The notes under the pieces were generated by a model, which saw only the letters and a list, made by a program, of their open reading frames with translations, did no database searches and was not told where the DNA came from. A stretch of 64,000 bases of DNA from a bacterium (GTDB lineage: Bacteria; Vulcanimicrobiota; Xenobia; Xenobiales; JADMJV01): the NCBI GenBank assembly GCA_018780265.1, contig JADMJV010000035.1, positions 10,491 through 74,490 of the forward strand. The letters run 5' to 3'. How positions within the stretch are numbered: position 1 is the first letter of the stretch; the number at the start of each line of letters is the position of its first letter. Positions 9,766 through 64,000 of the stretch are shown one piece after another. The position numbers were made by a program, and so were the translations under genes.

Positions 9766-10502
9766 AGCTTGTCGGCCACCTTCACCAGGTTGAGGTCGAT
9801 TCGCCCCATGCCCTGAAACCCATAACTCTCCTGAATGCGCATCAATTTGCAGGGACCCGGCTGGAGTGTGGAATTGAGCCCGGCATCCAGGTAACTGCCC
9901 CCCACCTGATTGCGAATGCGAGCCCCGGCATAGTCGATCTCGACGACCTTGCCAGCCACCTTGGCCGTCAACTCCAATTTCTCACCCACCACCTGATACC
10001 CCGATGCAGGCACCACCTTACCGTCAGCCACTCTGACCTGGTCAACGTAAAGGACAGGGGTATTTCGCAGCACGATCTGGTAGGGCGCTGAGGTGGGCAC
10101 GGTGTGAGCCTCGCCGCGGTCTGGAAGATAGTAGCTATAGCTCAAGCAAACCCGGGTGCCCGCCGCGGCCGTCAAGAGCGCCCGACCTTTGGCATTGTCC
10201 ACCTGCTGCACGGGGATCTCGGCCCCTAACACCTGCAAACTCTCGGGAACCAGGTCTTTGTGAGCCAGTTGCACCCAGCCACCGGCGCCAACGGTCAGAG
10301 TTTGGGGAGGCAAACTGTCAAAGCGGGCAGTGCGCACGGCGGCGACCTGGTAGCGAGCGTTGCGCAAGGCGAAACGATAATCGGATTCGCGGTGAAGCCA
10401 GTGAAGCGAAGCGCCACCTAAACCGATGGCCAAAAAAATGGAAAAAATCGCGATCGAGATCATTATCTCGATCAGTGTAAAAGCGCTCTTCCTCCCCGAC
10501 AT
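9762..10502 (-). CDS. prepilin-type N-terminal cleavage/methylation domain protein (pseudopilin)
   Basis: MSGRKSAFTLIEIMISIAIFSIFLAI class III signal peptide. Confidence 0.8.
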   Translation of the reverse strand: MSGRKSAFTLIEIMISIAIFSIFLAIGLGGASLHWLHRESDYRFALRNARYQVAAVRTARFDSLPPQTLTVGAGGWVQLAHKDLVPESLQVLGAEIPVQQVDNAKGRALLTAAAGTRVCLSYSYYLPDRGEAHTVPTSAPYQIVLRNTPVLYVDQVRVADGKVVPASGYQVVGEKLELTAKVAGKVVEIDYAGARIRNQVGGSYLDAGLNSTLQPGPCKLMRIQESYGFQGMGRIDLNLVKVADKL

Positions 10503-39537: not shown

Positions 39538-39918
39538 CAGAGCAAGTCAGCTGGACGGTCGCGGGTCGGTGTATCACCGGCTTGAGGAAAGTCCGGGCTC
39601 CCAAGGGCAGGATGCTGGATAACGTCCAGTGAGGGCGACCTCGAGGATAGTGCCACAGAAATGGTGACCGCCGTTCTTCGGAACGGTAAGGGTGCAACGG
39701 TGGGGTAAGAGCCCACCAGCAGTGCGGTGACGCACTGGCTAGGTAAACCCCGTTCGGGAGCAAGACTCATTTGGAGACGAAGGCCTGGCCTTCCTCGGCG
39801 GCCCGTCGAGCGTTCTTCGAGTATGTTGCATCAGGAAAACGGTAACGTTTTTCGCAGAGAGATGGCCGTCGGCGGCTTCGGCCGTGACAGAACCCGGCTT
39901 ACAGGCTGACTTGCAGAG
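39538..39918 (+). ncRNA. rnpB: RNase P RNA, bacterial type A
   Basis: Universal GAGGAAAGTCCGGGCTC, GGTAAGAGCCCACCAGC and ACAGAACCCGGCTTAC boxes. The P1 helix GCAAGTCAGCT (39542-39552) pairs with GGCTGACTTGC (39904-39914). Confidence 0.95.
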
Positions 39919-40100: not shown

Positions 40101-40496
40101 GTGACAGCAATGACGGAGCGGTTTGCCAACCTGGGCGTGAAATTTGCCTACATTTTTGGTTCCCGCGCTCGCGGCCAGGATCGACCCGACAGTGACCTGG
40201 ATGTGGCCGTCTGGTACGCCCCCGAATTGGACTGCATGGAACGCTTTCAGCGCAATTGCCAGTTGCAGGAGAGTCTGGAGCAGGAGTTTGGCGGTGCCGT
40301 AGACTTGATCATTTTAAACGACGCCAAACCGACTCTGCAAAACGAAGCCGTTCTGCGGGGCAAGGCCATCTATCCAGTAGACGATCCAGCAGCCATTATT
40401 CGCTTCGAAGCTCGCATACGCCAGCGCCACGAAGACTACGCCTACAGCCAGCGATTCTTCACCAAGGCTCGCCGGGCCCGAATGGCTCACGAATGA
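40101..40496 (+). CDS. mntA: MntA-type nucleotidyltransferase antitoxin (type VII TA)
   Basis: IFGSRARGQDRPDSDLDVAV is the minimal nucleotidyltransferase GS...DxD motif. GTG start. Confidence 0.85.
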   Translation: MTAMTERFANLGVKFAYIFGSRARGQDRPDSDLDVAVWYAPELDCMERFQRNCQLQESLEQEFGGAVDLIILNDAKPTLQNEAVLRGKAIYPVDDPAAIIRFEARIRQRHEDYAYSQRFFTKARRARMAHE

Positions 40497-40900
40497 CTCT
40501 ACACCGCGATCTACTCGAAGAATTAGAGAAGAATCTAAGGCTGCTTGAGGACCTGAAGACGCTTGATTGTGAAGAGTTTCTGGCCAATCCCAGACACTAC
40601 CTTCTGGCGGAGCGGTGCTTCCAACTGGCGATACAATGCGTGCTGGACATGGGTTACACGCTCGCTTCGTTGAGGCAATGGCAACGACCCGGCGATGGAC
40701 GCGACGCCATTCGCCTGATGGGACGTCAGGGTGTCATCCCCACCGACTTCGCGGAACGAATTGCGCCTATGGCCAACTTCAGAAACATCCTGGTGCACGC
40801 CTATCTGGGCATCAACCGCGAACTGGTCTATCGGTATTTGAGCCAAACCGATGACTTCCGGGCATTTATCGGCTATCTGGAAACCTACCTGGCCGACTAG
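40493..40900 (+). CDS. hepT: HepT-type HEPN (DUF86) toxin
   Basis: ATGA overlap with mntA. RNILVHAY matches the R-x4-H-x-Y HEPN motif. Confidence 0.85.
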   Translation: MTLHRDLLEELEKNLRLLEDLKTLDCEEFLANPRHYLLAERCFQLAIQCVLDMGYTLASLRQWQRPGDGRDAIRLMGRQGVIPTDFAERIAPMANFRNILVHAYLGINRELVYRYLSQTDDFRAFIGYLETYLAD

Positions 40901-41997
40901 GTTCCATAAAAGTGGCGCAGACGCCAGGCCAGCCAACTGGCCACAGCACTGCTGGAGATGCGTCCACTGATGATGCAGGCGTCCGAAATCAGTTGCAAGT
41001 GAGCGCCGCGGGCCGATTGGCGCACCCAGATCTCTTCTAGCTGGTCCGCCGGGATGGCGGCCGACCACACGGGGATGCCCCAGAGTCGGTCCTGAGCCGC
41101 CAGGCGCTTGGGGCAAACCCTTAACTCTTTGCGATAGCCGAAGAGAAAGAAGGCCGTCAGGCCTACCATGCCCCCGGTCACGTAAAAGTAGGTAAAGTGA
41201 TGATTGTTGCGGGCGATATCTAAAAAGGAGAGCTGAAAGCGGTCAGGCACCTCCTGCCCGGGTGCCAGCCTGGGAAAGATAGGCACGATGGCCAGCAACA
41301 GGACAAAGCAGACCAGCGTAAAGAACTCATTGAGCATGGCCGGACTGAGCAGTCGCCAGGTGTAGAATTGTTCGTCAGCGCTCTCGCTGACCTCGATCGA
41401 GCAGGGTTCGGGTTTGCTTACTTCGGAACCCAGCAGCTCGGGCTGGCGACGGACCCGCTCGCGGAAAGGCAGGTCCAGATCCTCCCGAGGAATCGTGATT
41501 TCGCCCGCCTCGGCCTTTTCCAGCACCGGGCAGTTGATGGTTTTGGCCAGCGCCTCGGCCAGCGAACGACTCTCGATCTGGTGGCCCTGGCGCCGGTCCA
41601 GGACATACTGGCGCTTGCCATCGACCAGATTGACCAGCCAGTATTCCAAGGCACTGGAGCCCCGCTCTTCTTCCTGCGAGCGCAACCGAATCATGGGGGG
41701 CTCCTGCCAGTTGTAGCGCAAACTGCGCCCAAACCACCCATCCTTGACACGCACGCTTTGACCTTCTACCCAGAAGCGCTTGCGTGTGTAGCGCATCAGC
41801 AGAAATCCCAGGATGACCAGCACAAAGCCGGCCGGAGCCGCATAGTGGACCCCGTTGTTGTCAGGGTAAACGGTTGCCAACAGGGCTCGGGCTGGAAAGC
41901 TCAAGGCCAACCCGCAGAACACCAAAAAAAGGCCGAGGTCGTTGTTACTCTCTGATGGTATCGAGATCACTCCCGAGGCGCTACGCACCACAGACAT
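40897..41997 (-). CDS. hypothetical membrane protein
   Basis: 366-aa ORF with two pairs of TM helices separated by soluble segments. It lies 15 nt downstream of the FlhB_C-FlhA_C fusion gene on the same strand. Confidence 0.55.
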   Translation of the reverse strand: MSVVRSASGVISIPSESNNDLGLFLVFCGLALSFPARALLATVYPDNNGVHYAAPAGFVLVILGFLLMRYTRKRFWVEGQSVRVKDGWFGRSLRYNWQEPPMIRLRSQEEERGSSALEYWLVNLVDGKRQYVLDRRQGHQIESRSLAEALAKTINCPVLEKAEAGEITIPREDLDLPFRERVRRQPELLGSEVSKPEPCSIEVSESADEQFYTWRLLSPAMLNEFFTLVCFVLLLAIVPIFPRLAPGQEVPDRFQLSFLDIARNNHHFTYFYVTGGMVGLTAFFLFGYRKELRVCPKRLAAQDRLWGIPVWSAAIPADQLEEIWVRQSARGAHLQLISDACIISGRISSSAVASWLAWRLRHFYGT

Positions 41998-42011: not shown

Positions 42012-43244
42012 CTACAGCCTTATGGTGGTGTAGACGCGCACATCAGCGTCGGCGGCTACCTCAGGATATGACAAAACCGGTAAGAGTGGGAAGGAAGGCT
42101 CGACCAGACGGCGCAAAAACCGGCGGGGACGGGGACTGCATAGCAATACCGGACGGACCCCTCTGCTCTCTGCTTTTTCCACCCCTTTGGCCACGCTGGT
42201 CAACAGTTTGAGACTGACGTCCACGTCCAGGTCAAACCAAATCGCCATAGAGGCGGGCCGCACATCTTTGAGAATGCTGCTCTCCATTTCAGGCGACACC
42301 AGCATGGCGTGAACGATCCCTTGAGCATCGGCATATTCACGGCACAGTTGAAAGTTGAGGGAAGCGCGCACAAATTCGGTCAACTGGTCCGGGTCCTGCG
42401 AGCGCAGTTTGTGACTTTCGACTGCCTCCAAGACGGCCGTCAGGTCGCGAATTTTAATCCCCTCGCGCAGCAGGTTGCGCAAAATTTGGCGCAATCCAGA
42501 GACAGTAAGATGGTCAGGAAAGAGCGCCTTGTAGAGACCCGCATGGGTCTTGCGGACTGCTTCCACCAACCTCTCTGTCTCGCGAAAACCCAGCAACCGG
42601 TGGGCATTGCGGGAGATCACCTGATACAGGCCCAGCATCAGGTCCCCAAAGTCAGGCGGTTGAGCGGCACTCCAAATAAACTCACAAGAGCCCTGCACCA
42701 AAATGCGACCGGCGCAGTCCAGGTCCGGGCAATGGCGCACCTCCAGACTGAGCAATGGGAGGCCCGTTTCAACCTGCAATTTTTGGCGGTGCAAAGTCGT
42801 GAGGGAAACCACCGGCTGAACCCATTCCGCCTGACTCAACTCGATCCAGATGCGGGATACTTCAAGTTGCGCCCTTAACTCTGAAAGGCCGCCTTTCCAG
42901 CGCTTGGGCACCTGACCCAGCCCCTTGACCAACTTGACCGGAGTAGGACCTGGACGACTGCGCTGCACCAGTGCAATGGCCTGAGCAGCGGACCGAAATA
43001 GACCTTCGGGAATTTCCTGGCCCGGATCTAACCCCACCAGATGCTCCGAGGTCATTTCACAGCACTCGACGATGGGCACCCCCATTTCCTGGGCCGACCA
43101 AAGCAGTTCGGGCACCTGATTTCCGGTGACGCAGGCAACAACCGACGGCGTTTCCCCTGGCGAGTAAGCCAGGGCTAAAGCCGCAGACTCGGGGGCCAGC
43201 AGCACCACTTCAGTCCGGCTTAATTGAGTCGGGTCCACGGCCAC
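42012..43244 (-). CDS. soluble FlhB_C-like + FlhA_C-like fusion protein (no membrane domain)
   Basis: Residues ~10-95 resemble the post-cleavage FlhB/YscU C-domain: ALALAYSPGETPSVVACVTGNQVPELLWSAQEMGVPIVECCEMTSEHLVGLDPGQEIPEGLFRSAAQAIALV. The rest is colinear with FlhA_C: LRQILRNLLREGIKIRDLTAVLEAVES and RPVLLCSPRPRRFLRRLVEPSFPLLPVLSYPEV. A GTG start at 43244 or 43238 sits after GTGAGG. Confidence 0.75.
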   Translation of the reverse strand: MAVDPTQLSRTEVVLLAPESAALALAYSPGETPSVVACVTGNQVPELLWSAQEMGVPIVECCEMTSEHLVGLDPGQEIPEGLFRSAAQAIALVQRSRPGPTPVKLVKGLGQVPKRWKGGLSELRAQLEVSRIWIELSQAEWVQPVVSLTTLHRQKLQVETGLPLLSLEVRHCPDLDCAGRILVQGSCEFIWSAAQPPDFGDLMLGLYQVISRNAHRLLGFRETERLVEAVRKTHAGLYKALFPDHLTVSGLRQILRNLLREGIKIRDLTAVLEAVESHKLRSQDPDQLTEFVRASLNFQLCREYADAQGIVHAMLVSPEMESSILKDVRPASMAIWFDLDVDVSLKLLTSVAKGVEKAESRGVRPVLLCSPRPRRFLRRLVEPSFPLLPVLSYPEVAADADVRVYTTIRL

Positions 43245-43472
43245 CTCACTTGCCGATTGACCGGCAAAGTCCTCTGCTTATCGAACAGTTGAATAGGGCT
43301 TGCAAGGGCCTTTTCGCCAGGGCAAGCCGATTCCTGGATTGTCTGTGGATCTATTCGGGGGAACAAGTTGATAACTAATTGTAAACGAAACACCAGGTCT
43401 ATTGAATCGGGTTCTATTTTTGCCAACTATAGCCATTTGCCGAAAGGCTAAAGTCGGCTTGTCGAGGGGGCG

Positions 43473-43501
43473 TTGACAGAGATGCGCCGCCGGAATAAGA
43501 T
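43473..43501 (+). promoter_or_regulatory. candidate sigma70-type promoter for the RNA array
   Basis: TTGACA (43473-43478), a 17-nt spacer, then TAAGAT (43496-43501). It follows the most AT-rich part of the intergenic region. Confidence 0.4.
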
Positions 43502-43530
43502 GCAGACCTCAGCCGCGGAAACGCGGACGA

Positions 43531-43610
43531 CGCCTCAACAAGCGATAGAGTTGACGCCCTGCTGAGCGAAATAGGCAGGGGTAGCTTGCAGACCTCAGCA
43601 AGCCGAAGCG
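43531..43610 (+). repeat. RNA module copy 1 (divergent P1/P2, canonical P3)
   Basis: TCAAC/GTTGA, CCTGC/GCAGG, GGTAGC, then GCTTGC-agacctca-GCAAGC (43584-43603). Confidence 0.6.
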
Positions 43611-43699
43611 CTGAGGCTTCGTTAACAATCCTTAGCGAGGCCCGAGACGAATCGGAGAGTCTGGTCGTAGTGACCGCGCCCTCTGGCTCGAGTAGTCGG

Positions 43700-43782
43700 G
43701 GTCCCAATGCTGGAACGGCGGGCGGTTGGGAGGTTCTGTTTCACCTTAGAAGCAGGGGTAGCTTGCATACCTGAGCAGGCCG
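43700..43782 (+). repeat. RNA module copy 2
   Basis: P1 CCCAA/TTGGG (43703-43707 / 43726-43730) with loop TGCTGGAACGGCGGGCGG, then GGTAGCTTGC-atacctga-GCAGGC. Confidence 0.65.
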
Positions 43783-43913
43783 CGCAAAGACGGAGCGAGC
43801 CCCGTCGTGGCCCAAGTCCTCTTCGGACCCGTGAGGAGAATCGACTTGTCCGGGAATCACATTCTAGGGTGTGAGGAAAGGCAAGAAGACCGAAGGAAAA
43901 TTCATGGATGCGG

Positions 43914-44002
43914 GAGCCTGGTGCTGGATAGGTGGCGGCCAGGGGGCGCTGACTCAGCCTGAATGAGTCAGGGGTAGCGTGCAGACCCGGTTACGCAGTC
44001 GG
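43914..44002 (+). repeat. RNA module copy 3
   Basis: P1 CCTGG/CCAGG, P2 CTGACTCA-gcctgaa-TGAGTCAG, and GGTAGCGT...ACGC. Confidence 0.75.
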
Positions 44003-44163
44003 ACAACATCGACTTGAGCGCATCAGCGTGGTGTAGTGTGGTCTTCGTTATGGTTGTGGAGCCGTGAGGCGAGACGACTCGAGCGGGAAGCGAAAGCGGA
44101 AAGTGCGAGTGGAACGTAACCACCAAAAGAAGTGCCCGGTGACGGGAGGCTTCGATGAGCGAG

Positions 44164-44250
44164 GATACCTGGCGTTGGAGGTCGGCAGCCAGGGGGCACT
44201 GATTCAGCCTGAATGAATCAGAGGTAGCTTGCATACTTGAGCAAGTCGCC
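44164..44250 (+). repeat. RNA module copy 4
   Basis: P1 CCTGG/CCAGG, P2 CTGATTCA-gcctgaa-TGAATCAG, and P3 GCTTGC-atacttga-GCAAGT. Confidence 0.75.
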
Positions 44251-44385
44251 CGGTCCAGAGGGCGTGAGTGAATCGAAAGCAATTGGACGAGGCTCATTGA
44301 CGAGTTCAGGGTGCCGTGAGGCAAGTAAAAGGGCCGGACAGAAAGCGCAAGCGGAAAGTTCGGTTTGACCTGGATTACGATGTGG

Positions 44386-44470
44386 GAGCCTGGCGTTGGA
44401 GGTCGGCAGCCAGGGGGCCCTGATACAGCCCGGATGTTTCAGAGGTAACTTGCAGACTTCAGCAAGCCGC
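44386..44470 (+). repeat. RNA module copy 5
   Basis: P1 CCTGG/CCAGG, P2 CTGATACA-gcccgga-TGTTTCAG, and P3 CTTGC-agacttca-GCAAG. Confidence 0.75.
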
Positions 44471-44634
44471 TGCGCTCATTCAGCGAGAGTCAAACCTTGG
44501 ACAAGTGAGAGAGGCCTCGGGCCTGATAGGGAACCGCAAGGAGAATGCTCTGGTCGGGAAATCGCCGCAAGGCGAGGAAACGGCCAGACACCCTGTCTAC
44601 AGTATCTTACTGGAGATGCTGGAATTGGCTTGAG

Positions 44635-44722
44635 GAGCCCGGTGCAGGTGGGTAAGGCGACCGGGGGGCACTGTCCTGGCCCGACGCAGGACAGGGGTAG
44701 CGTGCAGACCTGAGCACGTCGG
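44635..44722 (+). repeat. RNA module copy 6
   Basis: P1 CCCGG/CCGGG, P2 CTGTCCTG-gcccgacg-CAGGACAG, and P3 GCGTGC-agacctga-GCACGT. Confidence 0.75.
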
Positions 44723-44858
44723 TGAGTTACAGCACCGAAAGCGAAGTGAAGCGCTGTAAAGAGGCTGCAGAAGAGGCCGGGGACCGTGAGGTTCAAGTTC
44801 TTGTCGCGGGGAAGCCGTAAGGCGGAAAGCGAGAAGACCCCAGGAATCTCTTTCTGCA

Positions 44859-44898
44859 GGGCCTGGTGTTGGTGGGGCAGGCAGCCAGGCTGAACGAA
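44859..44898 (+). repeat. RNA module copy 7, truncated (P1 only, then terminator)
   Basis: GCCTGG-tgttggtggggcaggcag-CCAGGC is followed directly by the terminator hairpin. Confidence 0.55.
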
Positions 44899-44932
44899 GC
44901 CGTCTGAGAGATCAGACGGCTTTTGTTGTTTT
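44899..44932 (+). terminator. intrinsic terminator closing the RNA array (also abuts the convergent minus-strand gene)
   Basis: GCCGTCTGA-gaga-TCAGACGGC followed by TTTTGTTGTTTT. Confidence 0.75.
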
Positions 44933-45534
44933 CAGGGCTTCCAGCGCACCACCAGGGCGATGCCGCGGTCCTCGCGGTGCTGGTAGGGCTCGAAGCGTGG
45001 CTGCAACTTGCGGTCCTTACACTCCTGAAAAAGCTGGGTGAGGGCTTCCGGCAATTTAGGACGGCCCAAGGCCCAACGGGTGAACCGCGAGGCCTTTGCA
45101 TGCTTGGGAATCCAGCTTTCCAGTTCGACCAACCAGGGAAGCGGACATTGCTGCCACTCTTTGACCTTCAGGTCTTGCTGCAGCCAACCCTCGATATGCC
45201 GAAAAGAGGGCGGACCCAAACTCCGCAGCTTGGGATAAGGGTCTGGCGTGCGCTGCTGACTGGCGTGAAGCTCTTCCTGGAGCAAGTGCCTCAAGTCGAC
45301 CGGCTGAAAGCTCATCCGCAAGAGGGTGACTTCGTCTTTTCCTTGATCGGCGGCGGCTACAGCAGAAGACTGCAGTTGCTCTCGAGCCAGGCTGATCTTC
45401 TGCAAAATTTTGTCGAGCGAGTCCCCTTGCTGGGCCCCCCAGGCCCTGGCCAGCAGTTGATGCTTTTCGCGAGAACTCTGGTCGCGAGCTCGGCGGGCCC
45501 GCGCCTGCAAACTGGCCACGTCTACCTGTGTCAT
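44932..45534 (-). CDS. hypothetical protein
   Basis: 200-aa ORF with plausible composition. The overlapping + strand 250-aa ORF looks like a shadow frame. No motif recognised. Confidence 0.55.
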   Translation of the reverse strand: MTQVDVASLQARARRARDQSSREKHQLLARAWGAQQGDSLDKILQKISLAREQLQSSAVAAADQGKDEVTLLRMSFQPVDLRHLLQEELHASQQRTPDPYPKLRSLGPPSFRHIEGWLQQDLKVKEWQQCPLPWLVELESWIPKHAKASRFTRWALGRPKLPEALTQLFQECKDRKLQPRFEPYQHREDRGIALVVRWKP

Positions 45535-45572
45535 GGGGATACTTTAGACAGGCCTGCAGACATCGTCAAGAA

Positions 45573-45668
45573 TCAAAACAAGTGCGAGGCAGCCATAAAT
45601 CCCAGGATCAGGATTAACATAAAAAAGCCCATCCCGGCGTCAAACTGGACTAAGGTATCGTTTCTCAT
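45573..45668 (-). CDS. possible 31-aa hydrophobic peptide
   Basis: MRNDTLVQFDAGMGFFMLILILGFMAASHLF lies between two same-strand genes. No clear RBS, so the call is weak. Confidence 0.2.
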   Translation of the reverse strand: MRNDTLVQFDAGMGFFMLILILGFMAASHLF

Positions 45669-45736
45669 GGACTGAGTATAATGGAAACGTGCCGGCTGAG
45701 ACCTGACAACTTGTGACAAGATCGCCGAATTCGCGA

Positions 45737-46795
45737 TCAAACGGAATTTTCCCAACGCAGCCGAGGCCACGAAGGGGCCAGCGGGTGAAGGCGGGATCCC
45801 ACAACCGAAGCGGCCAGCATCTCGACATCGGGCGGAATTTCATCGAAGGCCAACACTGGAGTGCGCCTCAAGTCGAAGGGAAGCAGTTCAAAGAGGTCAC
45901 GGCGCAAGTTGCCGGCCACTACCAGGACAGCCTCTCCATGTTCATGCTGAGACCAATGCAACTCGGCCTGCAACTGGCCCAGCGCCATGCCAAGAAACCA
46001 GGACTCTGGCCCATCGGGCCGGGCCAATTCGCGGCGAAGCCTTTTGGAGGTTGATTCGCTCAGGGTGACATGCACCAACTGGCCCTGCTCATTGAGCCAG
46101 GGCGTGGTCAGGCGCGGTCCCAGGGCCAGGCGCATGGCGCGCAGGCGGCGCCCGGCATCGCGAGGGACCGACTGATAGGCGTCGACCAGGTCGGCCAGGG
46201 GGCCGATGCTCACACGCTCCTCCAGCATGCAGCGCAGGGCCTGAGCGAAGCCGACCCCCGGCGAGGTCAGGCCCAGGTGGGTGAGTCGCTGCTTGAGCCA
46301 GTCGACAGAGAGGCACCAGTGGAGACGATTCTCCAGGCGATCGCAGACATGCCCAACCAAGAGCGCCTCTGGACCCAACAGGTGACAGCCCAGTTGACGA
46401 GCTCCTTCGGCTCGGGAATCGGGAATCCAGCGGCCTTCCAGCCCGTAGACGGGTTCTTGGGCCCATTCTCCCATTAAAAGCGACACCGAGTCAGAATTTC
46501 CGGTGGCAAACCAGCGCCCCGGGTAAAGCAAGCCTTGTTCCCAGGGGCCTCCGGCCAGCCGAAAACGATAGGCACATGAGTCCAGCGAGCGGTCGCAGTC
46601 CAGTCGTAGCGAGGGGAGAGGTAGGCCGTAGGCGACCAGCAGTTGCTGGTTGACCCCTTGCAGTCGGCTCCACCAGGCATTGCCGGGTTGTAGCAGCTCT
46701 TGCCAGAGGCGTTCGCCCATGGCCAGCTCCAGGTGAGGGCACCCATCCAAAGATGGGGGGAGATCCCCCGAGCCTTTCTTGAAGCGCCCGCTCAT
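45737..46795 (-). CDS. soluble FlhA_C (FHIPEP cytoplasmic domain)-like protein, no membrane domain
   Basis: Colinear with the FlhA C-terminal domain as I remember it. YPGRWFATGN matches YPGRWLAINPG, EPVYGLEGRWI matches DPAFGLDAIWI, LLVGHVCDRL matches VVATHLNHLI, and ALRCMLEERVSIGPLADLVDAYQS matches VLQNLLDEKVPIRDMRTILETLAE. The start is uncertain (46795 or 46720). Confidence 0.8.
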   Translation of the reverse strand: MSGRFKKGSGDLPPSLDGCPHLELAMGERLWQELLQPGNAWWSRLQGVNQQLLVAYGLPLPSLRLDCDRSLDSCAYRFRLAGGPWEQGLLYPGRWFATGNSDSVSLLMGEWAQEPVYGLEGRWIPDSRAEGARQLGCHLLGPEALLVGHVCDRLENRLHWCLSVDWLKQRLTHLGLTSPGVGFAQALRCMLEERVSIGPLADLVDAYQSVPRDAGRRLRAMRLALGPRLTTPWLNEQGQLVHVTLSESTSKRLRRELARPDGPESWFLGMALGQLQAELHWSQHEHGEAVLVVAGNLRRDLFELLPFDLRRTPVLAFDEIPPDVEMLAASVVGSRLHPLAPSWPRLRWENSV

Positions 46796-47864
46796 GCCGT
46801 TTTCCTTTCCCCTCCAGGATCTGGCCGATTGGTTACACCAAAACGGCTACTACCAGGCCTGTAACGTCCCCGCTTTTACCACCCAGCGGGTCTGTCCTGT
46901 GCAGAATGTACGCTTTGAGCGTCGCCTGCAGAGCGGCCTACCTTTGCCATTGGGTGCCCATTCCCATCCCAGCCGATTTTTGGGGCAACTGTCGCCCGAC
47001 TGCCAAAATCTGTATCGAGTGTTCTATCTTCATGAGCCAGGGGACCTGGATCGGACTTGGCCAGGGCTCGCCGATAGCCAGTACGCCTTGTGGCAGATTT
47101 CGCCGCTCTGGACCATGGCGGGCACGCGATACATTGTGAGTTCGATTCCCCAGCGATCGCCGGGCGAGTTTGTCTATCTTGGAGACGACTCCGGTTTGTT
47201 GATCGAAGCTTCCTGGCGGTGGTTGGGTGGGCGTGGTCAGGGCCGGGTGGCCGACCTGTGTTGTGGCTGTGGAGTGGTGGGACTGTCCTTGCCCGAAGGT
47301 TTTACCGAGGTCGTTGGCCTGGACGCCAATCCGACCGCGCTGCGATTGGCCGAGGTCAATCACCAACTGAACCATCCTGGCCTGCCCTGTTCCTTTGTGC
47401 TCAGCGATATGTGGCAGGCGGGCCGGGGGTTGTTTGACTATGTGGTCGGCAATCCACCTGCTCTGCCGGTCGGTAGTGACCTGCTCTACGCTTACGGTGG
47501 AGAGGACCCCGCCTCACTGACATTGCGGGCCATCGAGGGGTTGGGAGACATGCTGGCCCCTGGCGGCAAGTGTCTGCTGCTCTCCTTTTCGGTGCGCGAC
47601 CGGCTCTGGCAACAACTCCAGCAGAGGCTGAGCGCAGATTTCTCGCTGGAGTACGAACCCCGGAAACGGCTGATCATGACCGACCCTCAATTGGGCTGGA
47701 TGGAGCATGTCTGGATCCGAATCGTCCGTGACCATCGCGGTCGGCGGATTCGCAAGCCCATGTCGTGGCTCAACTGGGCTTCGCAGTGGTCGCTCCCCTG
47801 GCTTCAGGCCGAGCCTCCCCCTCAGCGCTGCTACGCCGGCAGCCAGCGGTCATCACAACCTTGA
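46779..47864 (+). CDS. class I SAM-dependent methyltransferase (N5-glutamine/N6-adenine NPPY-type)
   Basis: VADLCCGCGVVGLSL (SAM motif I) and DYVVGNPPALP (motif IV). The start is uncertain (TTG 46779 or ATG 46794). Confidence 0.7.
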   Translation: MKRPLMPFSFPLQDLADWLHQNGYYQACNVPAFTTQRVCPVQNVRFERRLQSGLPLPLGAHSHPSRFLGQLSPDCQNLYRVFYLHEPGDLDRTWPGLADSQYALWQISPLWTMAGTRYIVSSIPQRSPGEFVYLGDDSGLLIEASWRWLGGRGQGRVADLCCGCGVVGLSLPEGFTEVVGLDANPTALRLAEVNHQLNHPGLPCSFVLSDMWQAGRGLFDYVVGNPPALPVGSDLLYAYGGEDPASLTLRAIEGLGDMLAPGGKCLLLSFSVRDRLWQQLQQRLSADFSLEYEPRKRLIMTDPQLGWMEHVWIRIVRDHRGRRIRKPMSWLNWASQWSLPWLQAEPPPQRCYAGSQRSSQP

Positions 47865-58504: not shown

Positions 58505-61500
58505 CTAGAGCGGAGGCTGTTGGGCGCGTTCCAAGGCGGCCAACTGTTCGTTGAGTTCGGCGTTGGCTTCTTCAAGTTCCCTGGTGTATGCTTGGGATTC
58601 AGCCAATTTGCGGGTCGACTCAGCGTCCTTCTGTCGTTCCTGTTTGAGGGCAGCCACAGCCTGAGTCAGTTTGGCGCGGTACTCTTCCAGCTTGCGGGCG
58701 GTTTCCTGGCCTCCCCCCGGTTTCAGCTGGCGTAACAGTTCTTGCTTTTCTCGCTCCAGCCGGGCGATTTGTTCGCGGCTGCGTTCCCGCTCCTGGTTGA
58801 CGAAGGTTTCCAGTTCGGACATCTGCTGTTCAGCCTCGCCCAGGATGTTGGAGGAAAGGTCGAGTTGTTCTTGTAATTCGGCCGCCTGCTCGCTCTGCGC
58901 CTTAAGTTGCTGCTCCTGTTCGAGAATTCGCTGGCGCAAGGCCTCTGCTTCGATCTTCGATTGAATCTGCTGCAGGTCGACTTGCTGTTTGAGGGCTTCA
59001 CGCTCCAGCCTGGCTTGCTGCAACTCGCTCTCCTGCAATTGGACTTTGAGCGCCTGCTGGCGCGCTACTTCCCGAAGTTGCTCGGCGTGCTCGCTTTCCT
59101 CGTGGAGGCCGGACTCCAGTGATTCTCGCTCGTCTCGGAGGTGGCGAAAGTCCCGTTCCAGTTGTTGGATTTTTTGGCGCTGCTGCTCGATGTGCGCCTC
59201 GAGCGCCTCTTTTTGCTGGATTTCGCTCTCCAGCTCTTCCATCACCGCCTGGGCGTCCGCCTGGGCCTGTTGCAGTCTGTTCTGAGCCTGGTTTCGTTCT
59301 GCCTGGCCTTCTTTGAGACGACTGGCAAAAGTGGTGACGGCTTTCTCCAGTTTGGCGACCCGTTGAGCGCGCGTCTCTAACTCGATGCCCTGGGTGATCG
59401 TCTCCTGGCGTAGTTTGGCCAGTTCCTCGCGCGCCGACGCGTGGTTCTGTTGGCTCTCTTCCAGCTCGAGTTGAGTCCCGCTGTGGGCCTCTACTTCTCG
59501 CTCATGACGCTGCTGTAGGGTTCGCAACTCCTCTTCAACGTGGCTCAGGCGATCCAGTTCTTCCGCCAATTCCTGAACTTCCAGGTCGCGGGTGGCCAGT
59601 TCTTTGCGACTAACCGTCAATTGCGCCAGCAGTTCCTGCTGTTGGTGGTGAAGCTGGTCCACTTGTTGCTGGACTTGGGCAAGTTGCTGGCAGCGAACTT
59701 GGGCCAACTGCTCGGACTGGACCAGCCAGATTTCCTGTTGACCACTGGCCTGTTGAGCCAGCACCATCACCTGCTCGACTTCTCCCAAGCGCCGCTTCAA
59801 GAGGTCTCGCTGACTTTCTGTTTTCTCCAGGGTCGACAGCAGTTCTTGAAGGGTGCCCCGGGCCGCCACGAATTCTTGTTCCACCTCTTGCTTGCTGGCG
59901 TGTTGTTTCTTGTACGCCTCCTTGAGCTCGTTGTAGCGGGAGTGGACCATCTGAAGTTTCTGGCGAGTGTTGCCGAGTTCGCCCTCAAGCTGCCCTAGTT
60001 GTTCAACCAGCCGCTGCTGCAGTAGTTGGTTTGACTCTTGGGTTTTGCCGAGCTGCAATTGCAAGGATTGCTGATGGGCCTGAGAGAGTCCCAGGTCCTG
60101 CTGGGACTGTTGCAGGTCTTGCCTGGACTGCTCAAGAGCCTGATTGGACTGAAGTACAGCATGCTGCTCTTGCTGGACCCGCAGGTTGGCCTGGTCAAGC
60201 TCGGCCTGGACGGTGCTGATCTCTTCAAGCAAGGCTTCGCGCTCATCTTGAAGATCGCCGATTTCTTGTTGCAGCTTGTCGACGTGCTGTAGCTTGTCCG
60301 TCAGGGCTCGCTCGGTCTCGGCTCGGTTGGTCTGCTCGCCCTCCAAGGATTGCTGCAGATGCAGGCGGTCCTCCTGGAGCAGTTGGATGGCCTCTTTCTG
60401 TTGGCGAATGCCTTCCTTGGCGCGGACCATTTTAGCCTGGTGAAGTTCCAGATTTTTTTGCAGTCGGACTACCTCTTGCTCAGCCTCAAGACGCCCGGCG
60501 GATTCGGCGGCCAGTCGCTCTTCCAGTTCCACCAAGCCTCGCTGGTTCTGATCCAGCTGACTCTGCTGTTGGGCCAGGCGAGCTTCAAAGTGCAGGGTCT
60601 GTTGGGCCAGCAGTTGCAGTTCGGAAAGCAGGTCTCGTCCCCGCTGGTCTGCCAGAAGGTGACCGTAAGTCGCTGCCTGCAAAGCCCCTTCCAGATGCTC
60701 AAAGGCCGGCTGATAGGTCGCCTCAAGTGCGCTTAATGGCTCCAGCTCTTTGAGTTGGCTTGAGTGAAGGCGAGCCTCCAGTGCCTCCAGCGCGTCCAGC
60801 AAAATCTGTTTTTCACTCAGTAGCCGGTTCAGGCCGTCCTGATGATGGTCGAGCGCTTCTTTCGCTTCGGCCAGCTTGCATCGATGTTGCTGCAGGGATT
60901 GGTGGAGTTGACCGGTTTCTTGGAGGGACTGCTGGCTGTGATCTTGCAGTTGTTGCTGCAACTCGACCAGTTGTCTCTGAACCCCCATCTGGGAACGTTG
61001 CTCCTGGTTGAGCTGCGATTCCAACTCCTCCAGGCGGGCGACGCTTACCGTCAACTCCTCTTCCAGGGTCTGCACATATTCCTGCGCCTGGGCCCGCGTT
61101 TGCCGCTCCCGATCGAGCTGGTTCTGTAAATCGCCAAGTTTGTGCTGATACAGTCGCAGTTGCTCTTGCTGCTGCCCCAATTGGGTTTCCAGTTGGGCGG
61201 TTTGTTGGCCCAGATGGGTCACGACCTGAGTCAGTTTGCCTTCGCGCTGGTGCGAATGATGGGCTTGCTCCTCGGTTAGGGCCAGGTCTTGTTCCAATTT
61301 GGATAGCGCCTGCACCAGCCAGAGCTGAGAGTGAATTCGTTCGCGCTCCAGGTCCTGACGAGCTTGCTCCAGTTGTTCCTGTTGCTGATGAGTCAGGGCC
61401 TCTTGATTGCGGAGCCGCTGTTCCAAATCTCGGCGGACCTGCTGTTGGTCCTTTTCGTGCTGGAGTTGTTCCTCCAGGTCAGCGGCGTAGCGGCCGATCT

Positions 61501-63085
61501 GGAGCAGTTCTCCATCTCGGTCCGTGCCGGAACGAGTGGCCAGATGGACTGCTTGCTCCAGTCCCCAACTGGCTTGTTGGCTCCACTCTATTACCAGTTG
61601 TAAACTGGCTCGCTCTGCCTCGATCTGGTCGATATGCAGCTGGGCCTCGCGAAGTTGGTCACGCAGTTGTTCTAGCTGTGTGTGCTCAAACTCTACCCGC
61701 CGCTCTGATTGCTCGAGTTGCTGTTCTAAGATCCAGCCGGCCTGTTGGACCACCTGTCCTTCGTTGAGCAGGGTGATGCGGCGCTGCTGCTCCTGTTCCA
61801 GTTGCTCGCGGGTGTGGCGAAGTTCGCTTCCAGATTGCTCCAGGCGCGAGCTGAGTTGGGCAATTTCGCCCTGGTGGCCTTGGTCTTGCTGGGAGACTTG
61901 CTCCAGTTGTCGAGCCAGTGAGACCCTCTGTTGTTCCGATTGGGCCAGGGCCGACTCCAGGCTGGCCAGAGCCTGCCAGGATACCTGATTGAGGCTTTGC
62001 TGTTGGCCGGCGAGTGCTGTAAGTTGCTGCTGAACCTGCAGTTGATGGAGCAACCGCTCTTCCAGAGCGGCCACGGCCTGCTGGGACCAACGGTTGCGCA
62101 GAGCGTAGTCTTGCAGCAGGCTATCCCAGCGCTGTTGCCATTCACGCAACTTGCCCTCAGCCTGGCGTAAACCGCCCACCAGTTGGGAACGTTCGCTATC
62201 GTTGCTGCCCAACCATAGCTCGAGGGCGTCGATGGAGCTCTGCATCCAGTGACTGAGGTTGGCCGTCTCAGCCCGCTCGGCTTCCAGTTCCATTACCCAA
62301 TCGGCGCGTTCCTGTTGCCAATGATTCTCGGCTTCACGAGCTTGGGATTGAGACGTTTGCAGATCTATTTGGAGACGTTCCAGTTCGGCTTGCATCTGAG
62401 AGAGCATCGCCTGCTGACGGACTCGTTCTCCCTCCAGCTCCCCCAGGCCACTGGCAGCCTGCTTGTGCTGGCTGCGCAACTGAGCGATGTCTGCTTCGCG
62501 CTGGTTGAGGAGCAGCTCGTACTCGGAAATCAGTTCTTGATTCTCCAGCAGGGCTTTTTCCAGATCGTTGAGCTCTCCGCGCTGGGGACGGTCGCGTAGC
62601 TCTTGTTGTAGACTCCCTAACCGCTGTTCAAGATGAAATCCGCGTTGCTCGGCCTGCTCAAGTTGTAGACGCAGTTCGGTGACCGGCTGCAAATCCTCCC
62701 GAGGGGAGGCTTCGTGTAGTTGCAGGCGCAGTTGTGCGAGCTGGCTCTCGTAGTAGTCTGCCTGCTGGCGGGCCGACTGGCCGGTCTCCTCCAGTTGAGC
62801 CTGGGCTGCTTCCAGGCGTAGCTTCTGGTCCAGGTAATCCTGTCGAAGGGCTCCGTCTCCCCGGGATGCCTGCTCCAGTTTGACCTGCAGGATTTTGGCC
62901 TGCTTGGATCTTTGCAGGGCCAATTGTTGCAGTTGCACGGCCGACTTTTTGTATTTGAGCGCCAGCGCCTGAGTCTGAGCCAGTCTCGTCTTCAGTTGGG
63001 CCAAAACGGTCCGGACGTCGGCGGCCCCAGTGGTTCCTGCCGCCCCCGCCTGACGACTGGTCACCGTGCGTGTGGGCTGGCTCAA
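58505..63085 (-). CDS. giant coiled-coil protein (1526 aa)
   Basis: Almost entirely Q/E/L/R-rich heptad-like sequence with no ATPase motifs. The TTG start overlaps the stop of the upstream coiled-coil gene (TTGA). Confidence 0.8.
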   Translation of the reverse strand: MSQPTRTVTSRQAGAAGTTGAADVRTVLAQLKTRLAQTQALALKYKKSAVQLQQLALQRSKQAKILQVKLEQASRGDGALRQDYLDQKLRLEAAQAQLEETGQSARQQADYYESQLAQLRLQLHEASPREDLQPVTELRLQLEQAEQRGFHLEQRLGSLQQELRDRPQRGELNDLEKALLENQELISEYELLLNQREADIAQLRSQHKQAASGLGELEGERVRQQAMLSQMQAELERLQIDLQTSQSQAREAENHWQQERADWVMELEAERAETANLSHWMQSSIDALELWLGSNDSERSQLVGGLRQAEGKLREWQQRWDSLLQDYALRNRWSQQAVAALEERLLHQLQVQQQLTALAGQQQSLNQVSWQALASLESALAQSEQQRVSLARQLEQVSQQDQGHQGEIAQLSSRLEQSGSELRHTREQLEQEQQRRITLLNEGQVVQQAGWILEQQLEQSERRVEFEHTQLEQLRDQLREAQLHIDQIEAERASLQLVIEWSQQASWGLEQAVHLATRSGTDRDGELLQIGRYAADLEEQLQHEKDQQQVRRDLEQRLRNQEALTHQQQEQLEQARQDLERERIHSQLWLVQALSKLEQDLALTEEQAHHSHQREGKLTQVVTHLGQQTAQLETQLGQQQEQLRLYQHKLGDLQNQLDRERQTRAQAQEYVQTLEEELTVSVARLEELESQLNQEQRSQMGVQRQLVELQQQLQDHSQQSLQETGQLHQSLQQHRCKLAEAKEALDHHQDGLNRLLSEKQILLDALEALEARLHSSQLKELEPLSALEATYQPAFEHLEGALQAATYGHLLADQRGRDLLSELQLLAQQTLHFEARLAQQQSQLDQNQRGLVELEERLAAESAGRLEAEQEVVRLQKNLELHQAKMVRAKEGIRQQKEAIQLLQEDRLHLQQSLEGEQTNRAETERALTDKLQHVDKLQQEIGDLQDEREALLEEISTVQAELDQANLRVQQEQHAVLQSNQALEQSRQDLQQSQQDLGLSQAHQQSLQLQLGKTQESNQLLQQRLVEQLGQLEGELGNTRQKLQMVHSRYNELKEAYKKQHASKQEVEQEFVAARGTLQELLSTLEKTESQRDLLKRRLGEVEQVMVLAQQASGQQEIWLVQSEQLAQVRCQQLAQVQQQVDQLHHQQQELLAQLTVSRKELATRDLEVQELAEELDRLSHVEEELRTLQQRHEREVEAHSGTQLELEESQQNHASAREELAKLRQETITQGIELETRAQRVAKLEKAVTTFASRLKEGQAERNQAQNRLQQAQADAQAVMEELESEIQQKEALEAHIEQQRQKIQQLERDFRHLRDERESLESGLHEESEHAEQLREVARQQALKVQLQESELQQARLEREALKQQVDLQQIQSKIEAEALRQRILEQEQQLKAQSEQAAELQEQLDLSSNILGEAEQQMSELETFVNQERERSREQIARLEREKQELLRQLKPGGGQETARKLEEYRAKLTQAVAALKQERQKDAESTRKLAESQAYTRELEEANAELNEQLAALERAQQPPL

Positions 63086-64000
63086 GGCTTGCCCTTCTTC
63101 CCTTTGCGAGGCGGATCTGAGTCAGAATCGGCGTCCCTCAGGCGTTGCTCAAGCTGAGCCACCTGAGCCAGCGCGTCGGCCAGTTCGCGCTGCAAAATGG
63201 CGGCTTTGGCTTCAGCGCGGGCGCGTTTGTTGTCGAGAGGTTCGAGTTGATTGTGCGCTTCCAGGAGCCGAGTGCGAGTGTCAACCAGGTCTTTTTCGGT
63301 CTGGGCGGACTTTTTTTCGAGTCGGGCGAACTTCTTTTGCAATTCCTCCGACATCTCGCCCGCGCCGGCCTGGCTGTCTTGGATCTGTTGGCGAGTTTCT
63401 TTTAAGTCGTTCTCATGCTGACGCAGCTTGATTTTGAGTTGATCCATGGCCGCTACTGTAGACTCGAGCTGTTCGGTTTGTTGCTGCATCAACTGGTCTT
63501 TGACTTCCAGGCGTTCTTCCAGCTCCCGTGACCTGCCCACAAAGCTTTCCAGCTTGCGCAGTTTTTCCATCTCAGCGCGAGCCTCGTCAAGGTTCGTTTG
63601 CAATTGGACGGCTATTTCTTCCCGCTTCTCCAACTGCTCTAGCAGGCTGGCGTTCTCTTCTTCCCGTTCTTGCAGCGTCCGCTGAATCTGGGCCAGTTCG
63701 TCGCGCACTTCGTCGTCAGCAGAGTCGCCCGCGCTCAACTCCAACTCGTGCATCTTGAGTTCGATTTCCATTTTTTCGGATTGAAGTTGCTCCAACTGCC
63801 CTTGCAGACTGGTGATCAGCTTGCTGTCCGACTCCGCGTCCTCCCGCAGCAGACGCAATTCTTCCAGTTCAAGTTGCTGCTCGCTGTGGTTCTCCAGATG
63901 CTCTTCACTCTTGTTCTTGTGTCGCAGTACCTCCTCTTGCAGCATTTCGATGCGCTCGTCGCGGGCATGCAGATCGATTTCTAATTCGACCAGCAAAGCG
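63082..64000 (-). CDS. coiled-coil protein, C-terminal part (gene runs off the right edge)
   Basis: The open frame reaches the window edge. E/L/Q/K-rich coiled coil ending in the basic tail PPRKGKKGKP. Confidence 0.7.
   Translation of the reverse strand, partial: ALLVELEIDLHARDERIEMLQEEVLRHKNKSEEHLENHSEQQLELEELRLLREDAESDSKLITSLQGQLEQLQSEKMEIELKMHELELSAGDSADDEVRDELAQIQRTLQEREEENASLLEQLEKREEIAVQLQTNLDEARAEMEKLRKLESFVGRSRELEERLEVKDQLMQQQTEQLESTVAAMDQLKIKLRQHENDLKETRQQIQDSQAGAGEMSEELQKKFARLEKKSAQTEKDLVDTRTRLLEAHNQLEPLDNKRARAEAKAAILQRELADALAQVAQLEQRLRDADSDSDPPRKGKKGKP

What the first reader, a model, noticed from the sequence alone, without database searches (positions are those of the whole stretch)
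42012..46795. The RNA array is bracketed by two membrane-less paralogues of the flagellar/T3SS export-gate cytoplasmic domains, one an FlhB_C-FlhA_C fusion
ORF 45737..46795 (352 aa) and the C-terminal ~315 aa of ORF 42012..43244 are each colinear with the FlhA/SctV cytoplasmic domain. Shared segments include YPGRWFA, EPVYGLEGRWI, LRNLLREGIKIRDLTAVLEAVES and RPVLLCSP...LPVLSYPEV. Both lack the N-terminal FHIPEP transmembrane region entirely. The 42012 protein also carries an N-terminal segment resembling the FlhB/SctU C-terminal domain, with GVPIVE...GQEIPEGLF...A.A.ALV but LAPES in place of the NPTH autocleavage site. I see no other flagellar or injectisome gene anywhere in the 64 kb. The fusion gene is transcribed divergently from the RNA array promoter region. 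The other paralogue's operon converges on the array terminator. Characterised FlhA_C forms a ring that docks chaperone-substrate complexes. A soluble FlhA_C/FlhB_C module next to a multi-module RNA suggests a repurposed, possibly RNA-associated or regulatory, system rather than a secretion gate. This link is inference.
Basis: partly seen in the sequence, partly recalled or inferred. Interest (0 to 1): 0.7.

Follow-up and report, generated by a model that had tools for sequence, protein, structure and literature searches.

The report
Soluble FlhA/FlhB-like proteins, not RNA-linked
Two conserved genes in an uncultured soil bacterium (Eremiobacterota, class Xenobia) encode membrane-less copies of the cytoplasmic parts of the flagellar export gate, one fused to an FlhB-like domain and always paired with an unknown membrane protein, and their position either side of a large repeated RNA is a local rearrangement, not a functional link.

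Summary
ORF 42012..43244(-) is an FlhB_C-like domain fused to an FlhA_C-like domain. ORF 45737..46795(-) is a stand-alone, complete FlhA_C. Pfam hits pass gathering scores. AlphaFold models (pLDDT 86-87) match solved FlhA_C/SctV_C structures (Foldseek E about 1e-22). Neither protein has a TM segment, and the window holds no TM remnant and no other flagellar/T3SS gene.

New details:
- The fusion lacks subdomain SD2, the chaperone-binding part. The stand-alone protein keeps it.
- NPTH is replaced by APES, so no cleavage Asn remains. The FlhB substrate-pocket residues are conserved.
- Both are conserved families (35-95% and 50-95% identity) found in Xenobia MAGs, so they are not gene fragments.

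The RNA-linked interpretation fails.
- The constant partner of the fusion is the downstream 366-aa membrane protein (40897..41997), adjacent in 18/18 loci.
- The RNA array lies next to the fusion only in one subclade.
- The stand-alone FlhA_C sits elsewhere in all 13 related places examined, in a fixed MTase / FlhA_C / 63-aa / FemAB context.
- The RNA array occurs widely in metagenome contigs without these genes.

Best reading: an exapted, membrane-tethered docking module of unknown cargo. It is a new variant of a known kind. Whether these genomes also have a flagellum was not testable.

The parts
42012..43244 (-). FlhB_C-like / FlhA_C-like fusion gene (410 aa)
   Evidence: Pfam FHIPEP 3.9e-44 and Bac_export_2 1.7e-6. 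AF2 pLDDT 87. Foldseek FlhA_C/SctV_C, E 1e-17 to 4e-22. Family of at least 36 proteins at 35-95% identity and about 22 representatives at 50% identity.
42945..43244 (-). Residues 1-100: FlhB_C-like domain, with APES in place of NPTH and the substrate pocket retained
   Evidence: Alignments to EscU and FlhB. Pocket residues A286/P287/A341/L344 (PMC9307174) map to T32, P33 (invariant), A87 (invariant) and I90. Strand/helix order in the model fits an FlhB_C fold (my reading).
42630..42944 (-). Residues 101-205: linker plus an SD1-like subdomain; SD2 is absent
   Evidence: 48-column gap against full-length FlhAs at the SD2 position. No sequence-level Pfam match here. Covered by the structural alignment to FlhA_C.
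42012..42629 (-). Residues 206-410: FlhA_C subdomains SD3-SD4, the best-conserved part
   Evidence: phmmer against B. subtilis FlhA_C 3mix, E 1.1e-29, residues 207-403. Contains most of the family's invariant columns.
40897..41997 (-). Conserved partner gene: 366-aa membrane protein with 3-4 TM helices and two soluble segments. Orphan family.
   Evidence: Directly downstream and co-oriented in 18/18 loci. The gap runs from -4 to 15 nt. 29-95% identity, tracking the fusion. TM segments at 23-41, 50-68 and 224-242. No Pfam or PDB match.
45737..46795 (-). Stand-alone complete FlhA_C (SD1-SD4), 352 aa
   Evidence: Pfam FHIPEP 1e-23. AF2 pLDDT 86. Foldseek Salmonella FlhA_C, TM-scores 0.79/0.84. 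Family of 26 proteins at 48-95% identity. Dimple residues D456->E114, F459->Y117, T490->G148.

Best explanation
These are two functional, soluble descendants of the flagellar-type export-gate cytoplasmic domains, kept in the Xenobia lineage of Eremiobacterota outside any flagellar or injectisome gene cluster.

Shown:
- Gene 42012..43244 encodes a non-cleaving FlhB_C-like domain fused, through a linker, to an FlhA_C that has lost SD2.
- It is co-transcribed, probably translationally coupled, with a lineage-specific membrane protein (40897..41997).
- Gene 45737..46795 encodes a complete FlhA_C. It retains conservative versions of two of the three chaperone-docking dimple residues.
- The neighbouring RNA array is an independent, widespread element. 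A rearrangement placed it between the two genes.

Inferred:
- The membrane protein replaces the lost FlhA/FlhB transmembrane domains as an anchor.
- The fusion then forms a membrane-tethered cytoplasmic platform, possibly ring-shaped like FlhA_C.
- This platform binds partner proteins or peptides through the retained FlhB_C hydrophobic pocket and the SD3/SD4 surfaces.
- The stand-alone FlhA_C acts as a soluble docking or adaptor protein, alone or as part of the same assembly.

The cargo and output (sorting, export-related or regulatory) are unknown.
For: Homology and fold.

Functional genes rather than fragments:
- Intact ORFs of constant length in 12 GTDB species and many metagenomes.
- 46 and 68 invariant columns in the two family alignments.
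- No TM remnants in the window.

Obligate pairing with the membrane protein:
- Adjacent in 18/18 loci, across rearrangements that move every other neighbour.
- Basic residues follow TM2 and TM4 ('RYTRKRF', 'GYRKELR'). By the positive-inside rule this puts the soluble segments in the cytoplasm.

Retained binding sites:
- FlhB pocket: P33 and A87 are invariant, residue 90 is I or L.
- FlhA dimple: E114 is invariant, Y117 nearly so.

Loss of autocleavage: no Asn at the NPTH position in the alignment.

A related architecture fuses the same FlhB_C-FlhA_C unit to an AAA+ ATPase (P0185). This fits a protein-handling role.

Independence from the RNA.
Against: - No oligomer or complex prediction could be run, so ring formation and binding to the membrane protein are untested.
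- The membrane protein has no detectable homologue of known function.
- It is not known whether these genomes encode a flagellum or T3SS elsewhere.
- T490 of the dimple is Gly in the stand-alone protein, and the GYXLI motif reads GERLW, so canonical chaperone binding may be altered.
- The RNA-fusion adjacency is conserved across about five lineages. Shared regulation within that subclade cannot be excluded.
Confidence: 0.5

Rival explanations
1. Accessory parts of a true flagellum or injectisome encoded elsewhere in the genome. The soluble FlhA_C and FlhB_C-FlhA_C proteins would modulate or compete at a canonical export gate. Stand-alone FlhB_C-like proteins of the TIGR00789 class may be a precedent for a soluble gate-domain homologue.
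For: - The N-terminal domain's best NCBIfam hit is TIGR00789 flhB_rel (E 4.4e-7).
- Other TM-less FlhA_C proteins in metagenomes are fused to FliG_N, a flagellar rotor domain.
- Both proteins score higher on the FlhA model than on the SctV model.
- The closest full-length FlhA (34% identity) lies in a normal flagellar operon.
Against: - No flagellar or T3SS gene in the 64-kb window.
- None is listed in the gene tables for +/-10 kb around the family in four lineages. The only exception is one weak Flg_bb_rod hit on a 108-aa gene called on the strand opposite its neighbours.
- The only cultured member of the phylum, from another class, has no flagella or flagellin gene (PMC9758169).
- The fusion has its own dedicated membrane partner.
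- The window carries a type IV pilus/T2SS-like cluster instead.
Confidence: 0.2
2. One reading: an RNA-associated or RNA-regulated system in which the FlhA_C/FlhB_C proteins bind or act on the adjacent multi-module RNA.
For: - In the window the two genes flank the array.
- The fusion is divergent from the array in L001/2/7, L008, L009, L010 and L006.
Against: - Adjacency is absent in 11 of 18 fusion loci and in 13 of 13 loci of the stand-alone FlhA_C.
- The array is abundant in metagenome contigs and sits next to unrelated genes in L039 and L078.
- Pfam detects only the FHIPEP and Bac_export_2 domains in these proteins.
- The bracketing is explained by a breakpoint right after 45737.
Confidence: 0.05
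3. Decaying remnants (pseudogene fragments) of a lost flagellar system, with no current function.
For: - The TM domains are missing, SD2 is lost from the fusion and the NPTH site is lost.
- The genes are isolated from any gate genes.
Against: - Full-length intact ORFs in every lineage down to 35% identity, with many invariant residues.
- Confident compact predicted folds.
- Tight coupling to a co-evolving partner gene.
- No frameshifted TM remnants.
Confidence: 0.03

Closest known systems
FlhA / SctV cytoplasmic domain (FlhA_C; PDB 3mix, 3a5i, 6ch1, 7alw, 7qij)
   Same: - Same fold. The stand-alone protein covers SD1-SD4 (TM-scores 0.79-0.84) and the fusion covers SD1, SD3 and SD4.
- The conserved SD3 motif is kept (LRNLLREGIxIRDL against VLQNLLAEKVPIRDM).
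- Both score higher on the flagellar FlhA model than on the SctV model.
   Different: - No 8-TM FHIPEP membrane domain.
- Not in a gate operon.
- The fusion lacks SD2 and the GYXLI motif.
- In the stand-alone protein GYXLI reads GERLW and T490 is Gly.
- The oligomeric state is unknown.
FlhB / SctU C-terminal domain (FlhB_C; EscU 3bzp, FlhB 6z0w, 3b1s)
   Same: - Pfam Bac_export_2 matches the C-terminal part above the gathering score.
- The order of strands and helices agrees with FlhB_C.
- The hydrophobic substrate-pocket residues P287, A341 and L344 are conserved as P33, A87 and I90.
   Different: - No 4-TM domain.
- NPTH is replaced by APES or other non-Asn loops across the family, so no autocleavage and no cleavage-dependent switch.
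- Covalently fused to an FlhA_C.
Stand-alone FlhB_C-like proteins (NCBIfam TIGR00789 flhB_rel; B. subtilis YlqH is my recollection of an example)
   Same: A soluble FlhB_C-like module without a membrane domain. This is the best-scoring NCBIfam model for residues 21-94.
   Different: - Scores 30 bits against a cutoff of 117, so it is not a member.
- Here the module is the N-terminal domain of a 410-aa fusion.
- The function of that family is, to my knowledge, also uncharacterised.
Other gate-component fusions (FliR-FlhB fusion, NCBIfam NF009411)
   Same: A precedent for covalent fusion of export-apparatus components that interact in the canonical machine.
   Different: That fusion keeps all membrane domains and works inside a real flagellar T3SS. 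This one joins only the two cytoplasmic domains.

Membership tests
FHIPEP (FlhA/SctV export-gate protein) | N-terminal polytopic membrane domain (about 330 aa, 8 TM) | tested here: not met
   Pfam matches start at profile position 332 (stand-alone) and 460 (fusion) of 657. No hydrophobic segment. No TM remnant by tblastn.
FHIPEP (FlhA/SctV export-gate protein) | C-terminal cytoplasmic domain with subdomains SD1-SD4 | tested here: met
   Stand-alone protein: full SD1-SD4. Fusion: SD1, SD3 and SD4 only, SD2 deleted.
FHIPEP (FlhA/SctV export-gate protein) | Encoded with FliP/Q/R, FlhB and the ATPase complex genes | tested here: not met
   None in the 64-kb window. None in the gene tables of L001-L006 and L019-L021. 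The rest of the genome was not examined.
FHIPEP (FlhA/SctV export-gate protein) | Homo-nonameric ring of the cytoplasmic domain | not testable with these tools
   No multimer prediction is available. Only monomer models were made.
FlhB/SctU (Bac_export_2) | N-terminal 4-TM domain that wraps FliPQR | tested here: not met
   The match covers profile positions 248-335 of 335 only. tblastn with a full FlhB hits only residues 257-348.
FlhB/SctU (Bac_export_2) | NPTH autocleavage loop | tested here: not met
   The window protein has APES. No member of the alignment has Asn-Pro at this position.
FlhB/SctU (Bac_export_2) | C-terminal domain fold with the hydrophobic substrate pocket (A286, P287, A341, L344) | tested here: met
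   28.0 bits against a cutoff of 24.4. Secondary structure consistent with the fold. The pocket maps to T32, P33, A87 and I90, with P33 and A87 invariant. Binding itself was not tested.
TIGR00789 flhB_rel (stand-alone FlhB_C-like) | Stand-alone protein of about 85-100 aa that reaches the model's cutoff | tested here: not met
   30 bits against a cutoff of 117.35, and it is part of a 410-aa fusion.

The most novel reading that the evidence does not exclude
In a lineage without flagella, the cytoplasmic docking domains of the flagellar export gate have been rebuilt into a new machine. An FlhB_C-FlhA_C ring is anchored by a novel 4-TM protein, works with a free FlhA_C, and in some relatives is fused to an AAA+ ATPase. 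The machine selects and hands over protein cargo for a non-flagellar export, sorting or signalling process.
Probability: 0.2. Interest if true: 0.75.

Novelty: new variant of a known kind. Interest (0 to 1): 0.5.

Why it matters
FlhA_C and FlhB_C are studied almost only as parts of the T3SS gate. A conserved soluble FlhB_C-FlhA_C fusion is a natural 'Rosetta-stone' argument that these two domains work in direct contact. It also offers a simple single-chain, non-cleaving, SD2-less object for structural work on that contact.

If the host lineage truly lacks flagella, this would be a clear case of export-gate domains being reused for something else, with a new membrane partner to characterise.

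The check also removes a tempting but wrong link to the neighbouring RNA. It shows that the RNA is a widespread element in its own right.

Tried and rejected
1. RNA association, tested from both sides.
- From the protein side, loci of both families were searched with nhmmer for RNA modules.
- From the RNA side, a metagenome pattern scan was followed by tblastn for all four neighbouring proteins.
- Both gave no general link.

2. Gene-fragment idea: tblastn with the TM halves of FlhA and FlhB found nothing.

3. The BsuPI-adjacent proteins of 327-350 aa near the fusion in L001, L003 and L005 were tested as possible diverged stand-alone FlhA_C copies. An HMM search was negative. From their N-terminal sequences they look like secreted proteins.

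4. Defence-system idea: PADLOC gave no hit for the fusion, the stand-alone FlhA_C, the 366-aa protein or the 200-aa ORF. Only the neighbouring methyltransferase matched, generically, to 'mad2'.

5. A bacterial PH-like (bPH) repeat was suspected in the 366-aa membrane protein from its pattern of two TM helices followed by a soluble segment, twice. Pfam on 18 members and a PDB profile search gave nothing, so this remains a guess.

6. Literature searches for a described soluble FlhA_C or FlhB-FlhA fusion, or for flagella in Xenobia, found nothing relevant.

7. The window's own fusion protein is not on record in the contig index.

8. The context of the AAA+-fused relative P0185 could not be read. 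Its contig is only 2.6 kb.

Full report
**1. What is at the coordinates**

The 410-aa protein matches two Pfam families above their gathering scores:
- FHIPEP: residues 205-399 on profile positions 460-655 of 657, E 3.9e-44.
- Bac_export_2: residues 8-93 on profile positions 248-335 of 335, 28.0 bits against a cutoff of 24.4.

The 352-aa protein matches FHIPEP positions 332-656 (E 1e-23).

NCBIfam ranks flagellar FlhA above SctV for both proteins: 140.6 against 125.5 bits, and 85.8 against 20.2 bits. It gives TIGR00789 flhB_rel as the best model for the N-terminal domain, far below that model's cutoff.

Sequence searches of the PDB return FlhA_C, SctV_C, EscU and FlhB chains.

AlphaFold models built on family alignments are confident: pLDDT 87.0 and 86.2, pTM 0.82 for both. 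Foldseek places them on solved structures:
- The fusion on B. subtilis FlhA_C (3mix, E 4.4e-22, TM-score 0.82 to the target, 306 columns) and on YscV, SsaV, CdsV and MxiA.
- The stand-alone protein on Salmonella FlhA_C (6ch1, E 2e-22, TM-scores 0.79/0.84, 328 columns).

**2. Anatomy**

*Stand-alone protein.* It is a complete FlhA_C with SD1-SD4. In the alignment to Salmonella FlhA 328-692, the chaperone-docking dimple residues map as follows:
- D456 to E114, invariant in the family.
- F459 to Y117, nearly invariant.
- T490 to G148.
- The GYXLI motif reads GERLW.

*Fusion.* It differs from a full FlhA_C. Against full-length FlhAs it has a 48-column gap exactly where SD2 lies, and it lacks the GYXLI stretch. 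Its layout is FlhB_C-like (1 to about 100), linker plus SD1-like (about 101-205), then SD3-SD4 (206-410).

*Autocleavage loop.* In the FlhB_C-like part, NPTH is APES (A17-P18-E19-S20). No member of the alignment has Asn-Pro at this position. The top PDB sequence match is the non-cleaving EscU mutant chain that reads 'KAPTH'.

*FlhB hydrophobic pocket.* Residues A286, P287, A341 and L344 dock early substrates (PMC9307174). They map to T32, P33, A87 and I90. P33 and A87 are invariant in the family. The Salmonella numbering rests on my recollection of the FlhB sequence. It reproduces the residue identities given in the paper and agrees with the printed alignments to two other FlhBs.

*No membrane segments.* Neither protein has a hydrophobic segment.

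*Relationship between the two.* They are only 23% identical over 160 aa. They are old paralogues, not a recent duplication.

**3. Real genes, and whose**

The fusion has at least 36 relatives of 400-440 aa at 35-95% identity. It has 46 invariant columns and about 22 full-length representatives at 50% identity in a 1.8-billion-protein library.

The stand-alone protein has 26 relatives at 48-95% identity, with 68 invariant columns.

A scan of one genome per GTDB species found the fusion in 12 species. Most records are titled Vulcanimicrobiota, Eremiobacteraeota or 'Ca. Xenobia'. A few MAGs are titled Burkholderiales or Armatimonadetes, which I take to be mislabelled.

Sources name these proteins only automatically, for example 'FHIPEP family type III secretion protein'. 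My literature searches found no description of them.

No TM-domain remnant of FlhA or FlhB exists in the window. For the stand-alone gene there is no room for one: the divergent methyltransferase gene overlaps its start.

**4. Neighbourhood**

*The constant neighbour of the fusion.* It is the 366-aa protein encoded at 40897..41997(-).
- It is directly downstream and co-oriented in 18 of 18 loci.
- Its identity tracks that of the fusion: 95/94.5% down to 36/29%.
- The gap or overlap runs from -4 to 15 nt.
- It has three clear TM helices and probably a fourth, in a pattern of two TM helices followed by a soluble segment, twice. Basic residues follow TM2 and TM4. By the positive-inside rule the soluble parts face the cytoplasm.
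- It is an orphan family. There is no Pfam hit in 18 members and no PDB match.

All other neighbours of the fusion change between clades.

*The RNA array and the 200-aa ORF.* The array and ORF 44932..45534 lie upstream of the fusion only in the clade at 66% identity or more: L001/2/7, L008, L009, L010 and L006. In the clades at 36-46% identity an SBP gene sits 120 nt upstream, or other genes do, and no RNA module is found within 10 kb.

*The stand-alone FlhA_C.* It is never within 10 kb of the fusion elsewhere. In 13 other places its context is constant: RlmD-like / NUDIX-MBL / MTS methyltransferase (divergent) / FlhA_C / 63-aa protein / FemAB-like / epimerase.

*The breakpoint.* The window's right flank (46.8-56.7 kb) shares that context. 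The 63-aa, FemAB-like and epimerase genes are absent. A rearrangement breakpoint therefore lies between 45534 and 45737, and it created the 'bracketing'.

**5. The RNA seen from its own side**

The array runs from about 43508 to 44930 on the + strand. A promoter-like site lies at 43473-43501 and a terminator at 44896-44923. It holds about six modules whose hairpins covary between copies and species. There is no Rfam match.

- 103 of them contain 1-13 modules.
- Most contigs are 1.0-3.9 kb and consist almost wholly of the array, as assembled transcripts would.
- None encodes any of the four neighbouring proteins.
- Where flanks exist, the neighbours are unrelated. In L039 they are a clostripain-like peptidase and a DinB-type polymerase. 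In L078 they are a group II intron reverse transcriptase and a subtilase.

The RNA is therefore an independent and widespread element.

**6. No gate context**

Pfam on about 50 window ORFs finds no other flagellar or injectisome family. It does find a type IV pilus/T2SS-like cluster at 4551-10502.

tblastn with FliP/Q/R/M/N, FlhF and FlgE from a genuine flagellar operon (L022) is negative.

Whether the rest of the genome encodes a flagellum could not be tested. The one cultured member of the phylum, from another class, has no flagella (PMC9758169).

**7. Wider family**

The profile search also surfaced other TM-less FlhA_C architectures:
- FlhB_C-FlhA_C fused to an AAA+ ATPase (P0185).
- FlhA_C fused to FliG_N (P0145, P0154, P0211).
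- FlhA_C fused to HEAT or TPR repeats (P0137, P0146).

Soluble FlhA_C is therefore a recurring module. The AAA+ fusion hints at a protein-handling role for the FlhB_C-FlhA_C unit.

**8. Interpretation**

Shown:
- The homology, the folds and the solubility.
- The loss of SD2 from the fusion and the loss of the cleavage Asn.
- Conservation of the pocket and dimple residues.
- Obligate pairing of the fusion with a membrane protein.
- Independence from the RNA.

Inferred:
- The membrane protein anchors the fusion as a cytoplasmic platform, possibly ring-shaped, that binds protein ligands.
- The stand-alone FlhA_C is a soluble docking or adaptor protein.

Rivals:
- Accessory factors of a flagellum or T3SS encoded elsewhere: about 0.2.
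- An RNA-linked system: about 0.05.
- Decaying remnants: about 0.03.

**9. Verdict**

'Repurposed soluble module' is plausible. 'RNA-associated' is not supported.
- Novelty: a new architectural variant of known domains, apparently undescribed.
- Interest is moderate. It would rise if the lineage proves to lack flagella and a complex with the membrane partner is demonstrated.

Noticed in passing
window 43473-44930 (+); loci L023-L142: The multi-module RNA has about 6 modules here. Arrays have 4-13 modules with a period of about 220-290 nt. Many contigs are 1-3.9 kb and made almost wholly of the array, like assembled transcripts. The hairpins covary. There is no Rfam family. In L039 and L078 it lies among unrelated genes.
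   Followed up: partly
window 44932-45534 (-): A 200-aa ORF with no Pfam, NCBIfam, PADLOC or PDB match. It is conserved at about 51% identity at the 3' end of the RNA array in the clade at 66% identity or more (L001/2/7, L008-L010), but is absent from L039 and L078. It is a possible lineage-specific companion of the RNA.
   Followed up: partly
window 46779-47864 (+): An MTS-type (HemK/PrmC-like) methyltransferase lies divergent from the stand-alone FlhA_C, with overlapping starts. The pairing is conserved in all related loci. Its methyltransferase domain matches PADLOC 'mad2' (E 6e-17), probably a generic match.
   Followed up: partly
L019 11132-11323, L020, L021, L143-L151: A conserved 63-64-aa protein (…DLLMGDTGTLVWCERPPSLKEFLQATSNF…) always follows the stand-alone FlhA_C in other genomes, after a gap of roughly 60-75 nt. 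It is missing from the window. It is a candidate partner of that protein.
   Followed up: partly
proteins P0185, P0145, P0154, P0211, P0137, P0146: Other TM-less FlhA_C architectures exist in metagenomes: FlhB_C-FlhA_C-AAA+ (AAA_lid_6), FlhA_C + FliG_N, HEAT + FlhA_C, and TPR + FlhA_C + HEAT. Their taxa and contexts are unknown. The P0185 contig is only 2.6 kb.
   Followed up: partly
window 39543-39917 (+): Bacterial RNase P RNA, class A (280.8 bits, E 1.2e-90).
   Followed up: yes
window 40101-40900 (+): A nucleotidyltransferase / HepT-like (HEPN) gene pair lies between the membrane-protein gene and RNase P. It is also present in L006. The Pfam names come from the L006 gene table.
   Followed up: partly
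L001 12322-13563; L006 3781-5130: A 413-449-aa protein with no Pfam hit follows the membrane-protein gene in relatives. It is absent from the window (tblastn negative).
   Followed up: partly
window 4551-10502 (-): A type IV pilus/T2SS-like cluster: a T2SSE ATPase, three T2SSF-domain proteins and an N_methyl pseudopilin.
   Followed up: no
window 58505-63085 (-): A 1526-aa ORF with no Pfam match and skewed codon-position composition (GC at position 1 is 0.77, at position 2 is 0.33). It is followed by another ORF of the same kind running off the window end at 63082-63996.
   Followed up: no
L019 19671-21056; L020 19352-21053: A protein of more than 1000 aa near the stand-alone FlhA_C locus in relatives carries both Pkinase and T2SSE domains, and in L019 also a faint MshEN hit. 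This is an unusual kinase-secretion ATPase fusion.
   Followed up: no
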